DNA from: a virus
Lineage: Duplodnaviria; Heunggongvirae; Uroviricota; Caudoviricetes
Reading direction: 5' to 3' (one strand)
Virus record (IMG/VR): IMGVR_UViG_2671180458_000006
DNA length: 8,718 bases
In this document: in pieces, positions 2-1,757 of the stretch
Layout: the number at the start of each line of letters is the position of its first letter
Position numbering within the stretch: the first letter of the stretch is position 1
Position numbers and translations under genes: made by a program
Notes under the pieces: generated by a model
Databases searched by the model: none
Seen by the model: the letters and a program-made list of their open reading frames with translations, nothing else
What the model was told of the DNA's origin: nothing

Positions 2-805
2 TGCACCATGCTGGCGGGTAAGGCCAATACGGTATCGGCAAGCATGAAGGCGCTGGAAGATGCCAGGGAACGCGCGTTAGTGGTTGGCTTTTCGCTGATT
101 ATCATGCCGGATATGACCCGTTACGCTGGTGATGGCGCAGGAATTAAGGCCATTACAGGCGGTGACAAGGTGGCAATCGACCCGAAGCATAAAGCCCCCT
201 ACTCAACACGCATTCAGGCGGTAGTGTTGGCGGTGAACAATAACTCCATGTCATTCAGTGACCGCAGCGGGGGGATTTCACGTCGTCGGGTGATATTCAA
301 TTTTTCGGAGGTTGTACCGGAAAACGAACGCGACCCCATGCTGGCAGAAAAAATAGAAGGAGAGCTGGCGGTTGTGATTCGCCACCTGCTTACTCGTTTT
401 TCTGACCAGGACGAAGCTAAACGCCTGCTGTATGAGCAGCAGAAATCAGAAGAAGCTCTGGTGATAAAACGCGAGGGCGATTCGCTGGTGGACTTCTGCG
501 GCTATCTCATGTCGTCGGTAATGTGTGATGGTCTGTTAGTGGGTAATGCCGAAATTATTCCGTTCAGTCCGCGCAGGTATCTTTATCACGCCTATCTGGC
601 ATATATGAGGGCACACGGATTCGGTAAACCTGTAACACTGACGCGCTTCGGTAAAGATATGCCGGGGGCAATGGCGGAATATGGCAGGGAGTATATGAAA
701 CGGAAAACGAAGCACGGTTTGCGTTCAAATGTGACCCTGACAGAGGATTCAGAAGACTGGATGCCATCATGTGCATCGGTCACAAATGACGATGGAAAAA
801 ATTAA
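2..805 (+). CDS. P4 alpha-type (D5/SF3-like) primase-helicase, C-terminal portion; 5' end lies upstream of the window
   Basis: Frame is open from the window edge (first ATG at 8) to TAA at 803-805. The translation carries AITGGDKVAIDPKHKAPYSTRIQAVVLAVNNNS...GGISRRRVIFNF, which I recognise as the P4-family phage/plasmid primase C-terminal (helicase motif C) signature. It is immediately followed by TGTTCACC iterons, the octamer bound by P4 alpha. Family assignment is from recalled motifs. Confidence 0.75.
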   Translation, partial: CTMLAGKANTVSASMKALEDARERALVVGFSLIIMPDMTRYAGDGAGIKAITGGDKVAIDPKHKAPYSTRIQAVVLAVNNNSMSFSDRSGGISRRRVIFNFSEVVPENERDPMLAEKIEGELAVVIRHLLTRFSDQDEAKRLLYEQQKSEEALVIKREGDSLVDFCGYLMSSVMCDGLLVGNAEIIPFSPRRYLYHAYLAYMRAHGFGKPVTLTRFGKDMPGAMAEYGREYMKRKTKHGLRSNVTLTEDSEDWMPSCASVTNDDGKN

Positions 806-818
806 ACTTATGGAATAA

Positions 819-1048
819 CTGTTCACCACTGTTCACCCTGCAATAAATGTCTTTTATATCAGTATATTATAGGGTGAACAGTTATTTATGAACTGTTCAC
901 CAAACTATTCACTGTTCACCTTTTTGATTCTTTATTGAGCTTTAAGGGTGAACAGTGGTGAACAGTTGGTGAATAGTTTTTGTGAAACTGTTCACCCCTT
1001 AACATTATGAATAAAAAGGGAAAATTGCAAAAGGTGAACAGGTGAAGG
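819..1048. repeat. Iteron array, putative replication origin (P4 ori/crr-like type I iterons)
   Basis: Perfect TGTTCACC at 820-827, 830-837, 894-901, 913-920 and 989-996; the reverse complement GGTGAACA at 873-880, 947-954, 957-964 and 1033-1040; degenerate copies at about 905-912, 968-975 and 1041-1048. The array sits in an AT-rich segment directly downstream of the primase gene. Confidence 0.75.
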
Positions 1049-1092
1049 GTTGAAATGCAAAAATTTTATTTTATTGCTGTGAGGTAAAGCCT

Positions 1093-1338
1093 GTGACAAC
1101 GAAGCACGCCAAAAAACCACAATCTCACGCCCTTGATTTGACAGAACACTGGCTGAGGGTGGCGATAAAAATCATCGACCGCAACGCCGGGGAAGGATAC
1201 GCGAAAGCACATCCCGAACTGATAAGCGCATTCATGACCACAGCGGCGGCAAACTTTGCCACGCTGACAGAACGGGAGATTGCCGAAGCGGAACAGGTAA
1301 CAACCATCAACGTTAAAACCGGAGAGGTGGAATCATGA
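1093..1338 (+). CDS. Hypothetical small protein (81 aa), GTG start
   Basis: ORF with GTG start 1093-1095 preceded by GAGGT at 1081-1085. Its stop overlaps the ATG of the downstream SSB gene (ATGA at 1335-1338), which suggests translational coupling. No family recognised. Confidence 0.5.
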   Translation: MTTKHAKKPQSHALDLTEHWLRVAIKIIDRNAGEGYAKAHPELISAFMTTAAANFATLTEREIAEAEQVTTINVKTGEVES

Positions 1339-1757
1339 CAGCACAGATAGCCGCTTACGGGCGGCTGGTGGACGACCCGCAGGTAAAACAGACCAGCAAG
1401 GGCACACCGATGACGCTGGCGCGTATGGCGGTCCCCCTTCCGTGCAGCCAGGCAGATGACGGAACGGCGACGATGTGGTTATCCGTCCTGGCATTTGGCA
1501 GACAGGCCGAAGCACTGGAAAGGCACCGCAAGGGTGAACTCCTGAGCGTGGCGGGTAACATGCAGATCAGCCAGTGGACTGGGCAGAACGGAGAAACGCG
1601 GCAGGGCTGGCAGGTTATCGCAGACAGTGTAATCAGTGCGCGAACGGCGCGACTGGGCGGCAAAAAAGGTCAACAGGGCCAGGCTACTGACGCGCTGAAC
1701 AGGGCAAAACAACAGGCGGGGAATGATGATCCGTACGAGGATAACATACCGTTTTAA
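1335..1757 (+). CDS. ssb: Single-stranded DNA-binding protein (SSB) with acidic C-terminal tail
   Basis: 140-aa ORF with an OB-fold-like N-terminal pattern (IAAYGRLVDDPQVKQTSKGTPMTLARMAV...WLSVLAFGRQAEALERHRKGELLSVAGNMQISQWTGQNGETRQ) parallel to E. coli SSB, a Gly/Gln-rich linker and a C-terminal DDPYEDNIPF resembling the conserved SSB DDDIPF tip. SD GGAGAGGTGG precedes the ATG. Confidence 0.85.
   Translation: MTAQIAAYGRLVDDPQVKQTSKGTPMTLARMAVPLPCSQADDGTATMWLSVLAFGRQAEALERHRKGELLSVAGNMQISQWTGQNGETRQGWQVIADSVISARTARLGGKKGQQGQATDALNRAKQQAGNDDPYEDNIPF

What the first reader, a model, noticed from the sequence alone, without database searches (positions are those of the whole stretch)
2..1757. 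P4 alpha-type primase with cognate TGTTCACC iteron origin and an adjacent SSB gene
The primase C-terminus is followed within 15 bp by an AT-rich array of at least 9 perfect TGTTCACC octamers in both orientations; this is the type I iteron sequence reported for P4 alpha at ori and crr. A small ORF and an SSB gene with the canonical acidic tail follow and are translationally coupled. An SSB inside a P4-like replication module is not typical of P4 itself and may help replication independent of host SSB.
Basis: partly seen in the sequence, partly recalled or inferred. Interest (0 to 1): 0.5.

Follow-up and report, generated by a model that had tools for sequence, protein, structure and literature searches.

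The report
Satellite island replication origin with SSB
This is the ordinary, already described replication module (initiator helicase, repeat-studded origin, small ORF and SSB gene) of an E. coli phage satellite island that sits inside the terminase gene of a lambdoid prophage; it uses the same 8-base repeat as satellite phage P4 but is not a P4-type element.

Summary
Nine perfect TGTTCACC octamers (5 on +, 4 on -) lie in the AT-rich gap 806-1092. The gap starts right after a gene fragment that is 54% identical to P4 alpha residues 514-776. A GTG-started 81-codon ORF and a 140-aa SSB gene follow, overlapping as ATGA.

The fragment is the helicase plus winged-helix origin-binding part of an alpha-like initiator. 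P4 carries the same octamer in ori and crr. In 21 related loci the octamer changes in step with the C-terminal "wing" of the protein, which argues for a cognate pair.

Three points need correcting:
- The element is not P4-like. It is a Gram-negative PICI embedded in the prophage terL gene, with no sid, psu, delta or epsilon.
- The full-length protein in near-identical islands lacks alpha's zinc-ribbon and Toprim primase domain.
- It has one iteron array, not separate ori and crr.

PICI origins 3' of pri, and SSB as a member of the PICI replication zone, are already published. The orf81-SSB DNA is found in 34% of complete E. coli genomes. The finding is ordinary: a new member of a known kind.

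The parts
2..805 (+). 3' part (267 codons) of the island's pri gene, cut by the window edge: C-terminal half of an SF3 helicase plus the C-terminal origin-binding domain.
   Evidence: 54% identity to P4 alpha residues 514-776. Pfam Pox_D5 above its cut-off; DUF5906 just below. Corresponds to residues 335-601 of the 601-aa protein in L001.
476..766 (+). Winged-helix origin-binding domain (residues 493-589 of the full protein). It includes the variable 'wing' KRKTKHGLRSNVTL.
   Evidence: PDB 1KA8 (P4 alpha origin-binding domain) matches at E 2.4e-24. The wing sequence covaries with the iteron sequence across loci.
806..1092 (.). Iteron origin: 9 perfect and 2 degenerate ACTGTTCACC-type repeats, arranged as three convergent groups (820/830 -> ... 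<- 873; 894/913 -> ... <- 947/957/968; 989 -> ... <- 1033/1041). Each group brackets a 26-36-bp A+T-rich spacer.
   Evidence: The array is aligned in register with origins of other islands. The same 287 bp occur in 669 of 5426 E. coli genomes and are never annotated.
1093..1338 (+). orf81: small helical protein of unknown function. GTG start with a GAGG Shine-Dalgarno; translationally coupled to ssb.
   Evidence: PHROG 1231, unknown function, E 3e-50. 163 homologues, all 'hypothetical'. AF2 gives a three-helix model at pLDDT 68 with no Foldseek hit.
1335..1757 (+). Island-encoded SSB: OB fold at residues 5-99, a short linker, and an acidic tip DDPYEDNIPF.
   Evidence: Pfam SSB and TIGR00621 above their cut-offs. 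PDB SSBs match at E 3e-11 to 1e-6. W48, F54, W81 and the terminal F are invariant in 14 homologues.
1772..1795 (+). Hairpin plus T-run (AAGCCGGA-GCAA-TCCGGCTT, TTTTT): likely terminator of the pri-orf81-ssb transcription unit.
   Evidence: Read directly from the sequence. The consensus scan did not list it.
1796..1958 (.). cos-like segment A, copied from the helper type of lambdoid phage (context, not part of the replicon).
   Evidence: Matches the genome ends of mEp460-type phages and Stx phages. Aligns with the helper prophage region just upstream of its terS-like gene.
2191..4304 (+). Late zone of the island: orf75 (2191-2418) coupled to a ClpP-like prohead protease / major capsid protein fusion (2415-4304).
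   Evidence: Pfam CLP_protease plus Phage_capsid_4; NCBIfam NF045540 at 890 bits. 46-50% identical to the helper's own fusion gene.
4309..4488 (.). cos-like segment B: second, more diverged copy.
   Evidence: 76% identical to 1772-1883. Three-way alignment with the helper region.
4771..4779 (+). attR core TTGGATGGA: right end of the island. The helper's terL reading frame resumes here (..W-M-E-G..).
   Evidence: The same core lies at attL in L001 (8965). An intact 699-aa TerL in L145 reads ...SFWMEGPAAAYQTW... across the site.
4772..8697 (+). Helper prophage late genes: terL 3' part (to 5887), gpW-like gene (5878-6096), portal (ORF 6024-7604), and a ClpP/MCP fusion truncated at 8697 by an IS3-family end.
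   Evidence: Pfam GpA_nuclease, Phage_portal_2 and CLP_protease. IS junction.

Best explanation
Window 2-1757 is the 'Replication zone' of a Gram-negative phage-inducible chromosomal island (PICI). The island is embedded in, and co-oriented with, the terminase large-subunit gene of a lambdoid prophage.

Proposed mechanism:
1. Pri is an alpha-like protein made of an SF3 helicase and a C-terminal winged-helix domain. The winged-helix domain binds the ACTGTTCACC iterons immediately 3' of its own gene.
2. The iterons form three convergent groups, mostly in helical phase, around A+T-rich spacers. Helicase assembled there melts a spacer and unwinds the excised island.
3. Host Pol III extends. The source of the primers is unresolved, because this Pri lacks alpha's Toprim domain.
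4. The coupled orf81-ssb pair is an optional cassette. Its SSB coats the unwound DNA and carries a host-like ...IPF tip that could dock host replisome proteins.
5. A terminator and the helper-type cos site follow.

Shown here: homology, iteron statistics, conserved position, iteron/wing covariation, gene context. Inferred: binding, melting, role of the SSB.
For: Initiator:
- 54% identity to alpha 514-776 for the window fragment, and 49% over alpha 313-776 for the full protein.
- PDB 1KA8 matches at E 2.4e-24.

Origin:
- Nine perfect octamers where 0.36 are expected, in a GC trough.
- The same octamer is annotated in P4 ori and crr.
- In 20 of 21 loci, at least 4 copies of a T[GA]TNNNCC octamer lie within 330 bp 3' of the gene, with almost none elsewhere in nearly all of them.
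- The arrays align in register while the octamer switches between TGTTCACC and TGTCTACC.

Specificity follows the wing, not overall relatedness:
- L012 has a helicase core 95% identical to L001, a wing with a 5-aa insertion, and TGTCTACC iterons.
- P4 alpha has a core only 56% identical, the same wing type, and TGTTCACC iterons.

Wider sampling: of 120 IMG/VR loci holding the tandem octamer pair, 101 encode an alpha-like C-terminus and 84 have at least 3 octamers within 450 bp 3' of it.

Context:
- L001 reads int-HTH-BroN-...-DUF4222-pri-orf81-ssb-cos-capsid, between the two halves of terL.
- PMC6092414: the ori of Gram-negative PICIs lies 3' of pri, with two iteron sets flanking an AT-rich region, and EcCICFT073 pri-ori drives plasmid replication.
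- PMC10111431: helper-embedded PICIs in lambda A/B/C/E cognates; Replication zone = Primase, SSB, DUF5906.

SSB: family scores above cut-offs, with conserved aromatic residues and tip.
Against: - No binding or replication experiment exists for this island.
- The window holds only the 3' part of pri, so its intactness here is unknown.
- The N-terminal domain of the full-length family has no recognisable primase motifs, so the priming step is open.
- The helper prophage in this genome appears damaged: an IS3-family end truncates its capsid gene at 8697. This copy may never be induced.
- The SSB cassette is absent from many close relatives, so it is not required for the replicon.
Confidence: 0.85

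Rival explanations
1. It is a genuine P4-family satellite replicon. A multifunctional alpha primase-helicase acts on a crr-like site, with a separate ori elsewhere in the element, and the SSB is an unusual addition.
For: The octamer is identical to P4's, and the array sits 3' of the gene just as crr sits 3' of alpha. The fragment is 54% identical to alpha. It hits TIGR01613 'primase, P4 family' at E 3.8e-28.
Against: - The TIGR01613 score (98.2) is below its cut-off (108.7).
- The full protein lacks the Zn-ribbon and Toprim domains.
- There is no second iteron cluster in the whole island.
- sid, delta, psu, epsilon, cnr, cI and vis have no homologue in the island.
- The island carries a lambdoid cos site and a lambdoid-type capsid gene, not a P2-directed module.
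Confidence: 0.05
2. The octamer array is mainly a regulatory or copy-control site rather than the start site of replication. Pri could bind it to autoregulate transcription of orf81-ssb, or to pair ('handcuff') copies as at P4 crr.
For: The array lies between pri and orf81-ssb, so bound Pri would sit on any promoter or read-through transcript. From my own knowledge of the P4 literature, P4 crr is a cis element distinct from ori and both bind alpha; the record annotates both sites.
Against: - It is the only iteron cluster in the island.
- In EcCICFT073 the region 3' of pri is needed for pri-driven plasmid maintenance (PMC6092414).
- The convergent repeats around A+T-rich spacers fit a melting site.
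- The promoter scan found nothing above the shuffled expectation.
Confidence: 0.07
3. The module is a decaying relic. The island is trapped in a defective prophage and its replicon no longer functions.
For: The helper's capsid fusion gene is cut by an IS3-family end at the window edge. In L001 the helper's copy is frameshifted. The helper terL is split by the island.
Against: - All island ORFs in the window are open.
- Nine octamers are perfect.
- The island's own protease-capsid fusion is intact.
- The same module is 94-100% conserved in hundreds of genomes.
- Splitting of terL is the normal, reversible state of helper-embedded PICIs (PMC10111431).
Confidence: 0.03

Closest known systems
Satellite phage P4 alpha protein with its ori and crr sites
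   Same: - SF3 helicase core and C-terminal winged-helix domain are homologous (49-54% identity; PDB 1KA8 at E 2.4e-24).
- The octamer TGTTCACC is identical.
- The array lies directly 3' of the gene, like crr.
- The unit layout is similar: direct repeats, an A+T-rich ~35-bp spacer, then inverted repeats.
   Different: - Alpha has an N-terminal Zn-ribbon plus Toprim primase. This family has an unrelated 133-aa domain instead.
- P4 needs two sites about 4.7 kb apart. Here there is one array.
- There is no Cnr homologue.
- P4 has no SSB.
Gram-negative PICI pri-ori replicons (EcCICFT073 type; Fillol-Salom et al. 2018, PMC6092414)
   Same: Unidirectional int-alpA-...-pri order. The ori lies immediately 3' of pri, with iteron sets flanking an AT-rich region. 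The island carries the helper's cos site and a capsid-gene homologue downstream.
   Different: This particular island has not been tested. I could not check whether the published islands use the same octamer, because the figure is not held.
Helper-embedded PICIs (Tommasini, Mageeney & Williams 2023, PMC10111431)
   Same: [quoted passage not shown]
- Four zones: Integration, Bro, Replication (Primase, SSB), Late (capsid gene).
- cos is shared with the helper.
   Different: That paper's model island, 11capE, sits in the capsid gene E. It lists sites in gene A cognates, but I did not match this exact site. Two cos-like copies bracketing the late zone are not mentioned there.
Capsid-forming PICIs of E. 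coli (loci L004-L008; vB_KppS-Ant, L002)
   Same: The same DUF4222-pri-[iterons]-orf85-SSB block is present (SSB 74% and orf 91-93% identical). L002 has the same TGTTCACC array.
   Different: These islands carry a full head and packaging module, and they integrate in chromosomal sites. L004-L008 use TGTCTACC iterons with a different wing.
SaPI Pri/Rep-ori replicons (Staphylococcus; PDB 7OLA primase-helicase)
   Same: A self-loading SF3-type helicase-initiator with an iteron origin 3' of its gene. 7OLA matches the helicase core at E 3e-11.
   Different: The relationship is distant, with different iterons and a different host. PMC6092414 notes that pri and rep are sometimes fused, so they can also be separate genes.

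Membership tests
P4 alpha-type replication initiator | SF3 helicase core (D5_N plus P-loop/DUF5906) homologous to alpha | tested here: met
   Window fragment is 54% identical to alpha 514-776. The full-length relative is 49% identical to alpha 313-776. Pfam D5_N and DUF5906 hits.
P4 alpha-type replication initiator | C-terminal winged-helix origin-binding domain | tested here: met
   PDB 1KA8 aligns to residues 493-589 at E 2.4e-24. Pfam Pox_D5 at 50.9 bits, cut-off 21.4.
P4 alpha-type replication initiator | N-terminal Zn-ribbon plus Toprim (DnaG-type) primase domain | tested here: not met
   [not shown]
P4 alpha-type replication initiator | Cognate type I iterons (TGTTCACC) near the gene | tested here: met
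   Nine perfect copies in 820-1040. The same octamer is annotated in P4 ori and crr. Physical binding is not testable with these tools.
P4 alpha-type replication initiator | Two separate cis sites (ori and crr) | tested here: not met
   There is a single cluster in the whole island of L001 and in L002 and L004-L008.
P4-like satellite (SatelliteFinder definition, PMC10085698) | psu, delta, sid and epsilon together with int, alpA and alpha | tested here: not met
   tblastn of all P4 proteins against the island (L001 8900-19300) and the window finds only int (33%) and alpha (49%).
Gram-negative PICI | Co-oriented int, small regulator (AlpA/HTH) and pri, with no tail or lysis genes | tested here: met
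   L001 annotation: int, HTH regulator, Bro-N..., pri; no tail or lysis genes between attL and attR. The 67-aa HTH protein gave no Pfam hit, so its identity as AlpA is inconclusive. The L004, L006, L007 and L008 relatives have Pfam Phage_AlpA.
Gram-negative PICI | Origin immediately 3' of pri: iteron sets flanking an AT-rich region | tested here: met
   Definition taken from PMC6092414.
Gram-negative PICI | Carries the helper's packaging signal (cos) or a terS | tested here: met
   1796-1958 matches lambdoid phage genome ends and the helper region upstream of its terS-like gene.
Gram-negative PICI | Induction, excision, replication and packaging that depend on a helper phage | not testable with these tools
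   Requires induction and transfer experiments.
Helper-embedded PICI | [quoted passage not shown] | tested here: met
   terL is split in L001 (N part 7967-8977, C part 19209-20339). The attL/attR core is TTGGATGGA. An intact TerL reads through the site in L145.
Bacterial OB-fold SSB | SSB family profile above the curated cut-off | tested here: met
   Pfam PF00436 at 55.9 bits, cut-off 26. TIGR00621 at 60.2 bits, cut-off 53.95.
Bacterial OB-fold SSB | Acidic C-terminal tip ending in a hydrophobic-P-F motif (E. coli DDDIPF) | tested here: met
   The protein ends DDPYEDNIPF. DDPYGD[DGN]IPF predominates among the 12 enterobacterial homologues aligned, all of which end in IPF; the more distant L017 and L024 end in DDF and PPF. 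The E. coli motif is quoted from PMC5872125.
Bacterial OB-fold SSB | ssDNA binding, tetramer formation, partner docking | not testable with these tools
   Biochemistry is needed.

The most novel reading that the evidence does not exclude
The PICI-type Pri may be a 'primase-less' descendant of the alpha family. Its N-terminal 130-aa domain has a Toprim-like fold but has lost the catalytic acidic residues. On this reading, the island compensates by bringing its own SSB, whose host-like ...IPF tip recruits DnaG and Pol III to the origin it has opened. That would explain why SSB accompanies the Toprim-less form (30 of 42 IMG/VR loci) and none of 52 Toprim-bearing P4-type loci.
Probability: 0.12. 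Interest if true: 0.45.

Novelty: new member of a known kind. Interest (0 to 1): 0.2.

Why it matters
It matters little as a discovery. PICI pri-ori replicons, SSB in their replication zone, and PICIs embedded in prophage late genes are all published. This exact module is in hundreds of sequenced E. coli genomes.

Two by-products have practical value:
- The 287-bp origin is never annotated in RefSeq, although it is present in 12% of complete E. coli genomes. The rule 'four or more T[GA]TNNNCC repeats within 330 bp 3' of an alpha-like gene' would let annotators mark it.
- The natural specificity swaps map recognition to the wing. TGTTCACC, TGTCTACC, TGTCCACC and TGTCCGCC follow a short wing segment in an otherwise up to 95% identical protein. 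This offers ready-made orthogonal initiator/origin pairs for engineering.

The missing primase domain is a small open question about how these very common islands prime their replication.

Tried and rejected
- Full-text search for 'TGTTCACC' returned 2,174 unrelated papers, mostly primer sequences. It was useless.
- One literature search failed on phrase length and one paper look-up on term syntax. A look-up of reference 47 of PMC10085698 found nothing.
- Foldseek of the full Pri model against the PDB gave no hit below E 0.28. The model is confident only for residues 4-126.
- hhalign of the PICI N-domain against alpha's primase region gave probability 0.2. Pfam at E <= 10 gave nothing.
- orf81 has no similarity to P4 Cnr, no Pfam or NCBIfam family, and no Foldseek hit. 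Its function stays unknown.
- Rfam found no family in the window at gathering score.
- The promoter and terminator scan found no more sites than in shuffles, and it missed the obvious hairpin at 1772-1795.
- I tested 'SSB compensates for loss of Toprim'. The raw association is strong (Fisher p = 3e-15). It collapses to 11 lineages after dereplication, and L017 is a counter-example. I kept it only as a low-probability reading.
- 'Generic repeat' is rejected: 0-2 stray octamers per locus outside the array.
- One alignment call failed on a stop codon and was repeated with corrected coordinates.
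Full report
**1. Observation**

- TGTTCACC occurs ten times in the window, where 0.36 are expected. None of 200 shuffles reached ten.
- Nine copies lie between 820 and 1040, five on the + strand and four on the - strand. The tenth is inside the upstream ORF at 232-239.
- Two degenerate copies lie at 968 (TATTCACC) and 1041 (CCTTCACC). Eight of the nine perfect copies extend to ACTGTTCACC.
- Spacings between neighbours are 10, 43, 21, 19, 34, 10, 11, 21, 44 and 8 bp. Most are close to whole helical turns.
- The repeats form three convergent groups. 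Each brackets a 26-36-bp A+T-rich spacer.
- GC drops to 0.30-0.38 over 800-1100, against 0.47-0.68 in the flanks.
- The upstream ORF stops at 805, 14 nt before the first repeat.
- ORF 1093-1338 starts at a GTG with GAGG 8 nt upstream. Its TGA overlaps the ATG of the 140-codon SSB ORF (ATGA at 1335-1338).
- A hairpin plus T-run at 1772-1795 follows the SSB gene.

**2. The proteins**

*Initiator fragment.* The 267-codon fragment is 54% identical to P4 alpha residues 514-776. Its last ~100 residues match the solved origin-binding winged-helix domain of alpha, PDB 1KA8, at E 2.4e-24. P4 alpha is organised as a DnaG-type primase, an SF3 helicase and a winged-helix domain (PMC2777425).

*Full-length protein.* The window starts inside the gene, so I read the full protein from a 98%-identical locus in E. 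coli O111:H8 (L001). It is 601 aa long.
- Homology to alpha covers only residues 134-596, matching alpha 313-776 at 49% identity.
- Alpha's Zn-ribbon and Toprim domains are replaced by a 133-aa segment with no Pfam match even at E <= 10.
- AlphaFold models this segment confidently as a small alpha/beta domain, pLDDT 80-90. The rest of the model is poor.
- Foldseek found nothing significant.
- Profile comparison with alpha's N-terminus gives probability 0.2.
- The Toprim glutamate and DxD motifs are not evident in the sequence (FAGSDAW; RLYKAG).
- So 'primase' is an annotation label that I could not substantiate.

*N-termini are exchangeable in this family.* P4 and an Erwinia relative have Zn-ribbon plus Toprim. 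An Enterobacter relative has a 784-aa ORF from a GTG start, with a Pfam Toprim hit and a CPACGG...CSHCG zinc-ribbon-like motif visible in the sequence; the Pfam scan did not cover that upstream part. Serratia and Scandinavium relatives have yet other N-termini.

*SSB.* It passes the Pfam and TIGRFAM cut-offs. It is only distantly related to E. coli SSB (E 1.7e-6 to 1EQQ). W48, F54 and W81 are invariant in 14 homologues, and the tip DDPYGD[DGN]IPF predominates among the enterobacterial ones.

*orf81.* It belongs to a narrow family of 163 'hypothetical' proteins. AlphaFold gives a three-helix model at pLDDT 68, with no structural match.

**3. Is the iteron array cognate to the protein?**

P4 carries the identical octamer as the annotated 'type 1 repeat' in ori and in crr. 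crr lies directly 3' of alpha.

I collected 21 loci with alpha-like genes. In 20 of them, at least four copies of a T[GA]TNNNCC octamer lie within 330 bp 3' of the stop codon, with almost none elsewhere in nearly all of them.

The octamer differs between loci and tracks a short segment after the predicted recognition helix:

| Wing segment | Octamer |
|---|---|
| KRKTKHG[IL]RSNVTL, and P4's KRHTKQGIQTNLTL | TGTTCACC |
| KR(A/K)(K/Q)CT(K/R)GPDKGR..(T/S)NVLL | TGTCTACC |
| KKAESKKKATRGRIQSNITL | TGTCCGCC |
| KKERATRGPSKGNYQSNVTL | TGTCCACC |

Specificity follows this wing rather than overall relatedness:
- The E. ruysiae protein (L012) has a helicase core 95% identical to L001, a five-residue insertion in the wing, and TGTCTACC iterons.
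- P4 alpha is only 56% identical in the core, keeps the same wing type, and keeps TGTTCACC.

An alignment of the origins puts TGTTCACC and TGTCTACC copies in register. All repeats of an array have therefore changed together.

Of these, 101 encode an alpha-like C-terminus and 84 have at least three octamers within 450 bp 3' of it. The octamer is a marker of this replicon, not a generic repeat. This is strong comparative support for a cognate initiator/origin pair. Binding itself remains an inference.

**4. What the element is**

In L001 the module belongs to a ~10-kb island. Its gene order is int, HTH regulator, Bro-N, YlcI/YnfO, Icd-like, small ORFs, DUF4222, pri, orf81, ssb, orf75, ClpP/major-capsid fusion. 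The island sits between the two halves of a lambdoid prophage's terminase large-subunit gene and is co-oriented with it.
- The window contains the right junction. The core TTGGATGGA at 4771-4779 is also present at attL in L001, and the TerL frame resumes at ..WMEG...
- An uninterrupted 699-aa TerL reads ...SFWMEGPAAAYQTW... across this point, near codon 329.
- Of all P4 proteins, only Int and alpha have homologues in the island. Sid, Delta, Psu, Epsilon, Cnr, CI and Vis do not.
- The island has a single iteron array.
- It carries a helper-type cos region. Segment 1796-1958 matches genome ends of mEp460-type and Stx phages, and the helper's region upstream of its terS-like gene.

This is a Gram-negative PICI in the helper-embedded configuration described by Tommasini, Mageeney and Williams (PMC10111431). 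They list sites in cognates of lambda A, B, C and E. [quoted passage not shown]

Fillol-Salom et al. (PMC6092414) had already shown two things. [quoted passage not shown] And EcCICFT073 pri-ori supports plasmid replication.

**5. The SSB**

It is not remarkable for PICIs.
- The DUF4222-pri-iterons-orf85-SSB block is present in capsid-forming PICIs (L004-L008).
- DNA similar to orf81-ssb is found in 1866 of 5426 complete E. coli genomes. The TGTTCACC-type origin is found in 669.
- The cassette is optional. Loci with C-terminal fragments of Pri roughly 90% or more identical (k-mer clustering) occur with and without it.
- In the IMG/VR sample, SSB accompanies 30 of 42 loci with the PICI-type N-terminus and none of 52 with the P4-type Toprim N-terminus (Fisher p = 3e-15).
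- After dereplication at about 90% identity, these are only 11 lineages: eight Toprim, three PICI-type, and one of the three mixed.
- The Enterobacter locus L017 combines a Toprim-bearing alpha with an SSB.
- I therefore treat 'SSB compensates for a lost primase by recruiting DnaG' as a low-probability idea. [quoted passage not shown]

**6. Most likely mechanism**

1. After induction and excision, Pri binds the ACTGTTCACC repeats through its winged-helix domain.
2. It assembles as an SF3 helicase on the convergent repeat groups and melts an A+T-rich spacer.
3. Host polymerase replicates the island. The priming enzyme is unknown.
4. The co-translated orf81 and SSB, when present, supply extra single-strand binding capacity with a host-compatible docking tip.
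5. Transcription ends at the hairpin at 1772-1795, just before cos.

Homology, repeat statistics, position, covariation and context are shown here. Binding, melting and the contribution of the SSB are inferred.

**7. Verdict**

The thing is a new member of a known kind, and interest is low.

Noticed in passing
window 4771-4779 (attR); L001 8965-8976 (attL); L145 11149-13248 (intact terL): The island is inserted in the helper prophage's terminase large-subunit gene, at about codon 329 (..F-W-M-E-G..), between the ATPase and nuclease domains. It is co-oriented with the late operon. This is the helper-embedded PICI configuration of PMC10111431.
   Followed up: yes
window 1772-1958 and 4309-4488: Two cos-like segments, each preceded by a terminator-like hairpin, bracket the island's late zone (orf75 plus the protease/capsid fusion). 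Copy A matches the helper's cos region over about 190 bp. Copy B keeps only the first ~80 bp well. Which one is used for packaging, and whether the duplication records how the capsid gene was captured, is open.
   Followed up: partly
window 8692-8718; L145 16052 onward: The helper's own ClpP/major-capsid fusion gene ends prematurely at 8697. The last 26 nt of the window are identical to the sequence in NZ_AP045178 that is followed by an annotated IS3-family transposase gene. The helper in this genome is therefore probably defective. In L001 the helper's copy is frameshifted, while the island's copy (2415-4304) is intact.
   Followed up: partly
[not shown]
   Followed up: partly
L012 5807-6100 against window 806-1092; C-terminal 60 residues of the Pri proteins: This is a natural specificity swap. 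Pri of E. ruysiae has a helicase core 95% identical to L001, a five-residue insertion in the wing, and all iterons changed to TGTCTACC.
   Followed up: yes
window 232-239 (- strand): A tenth perfect TGTTCACC lies inside the pri coding sequence and is also present in L001. One stray copy is within chance expectation (0.36 per window).
   Followed up: no
window 2191-2418 / 2415-4304: orf75 (PHROG 4934, unknown function) overlaps the start of the protease/capsid fusion by 4 nt. This is a second translationally coupled pair. The same orf75-fusion pair is present in the Kluyvera locus L010.
   Followed up: no
proteins P0061 and P0062: These are 793-aa E. coli proteins that combine the Pri helicase domains with a phage portal Pfam domain (PF04860). 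They may be gene fusions or annotation run-throughs at another island/prophage junction.
   Followed up: no
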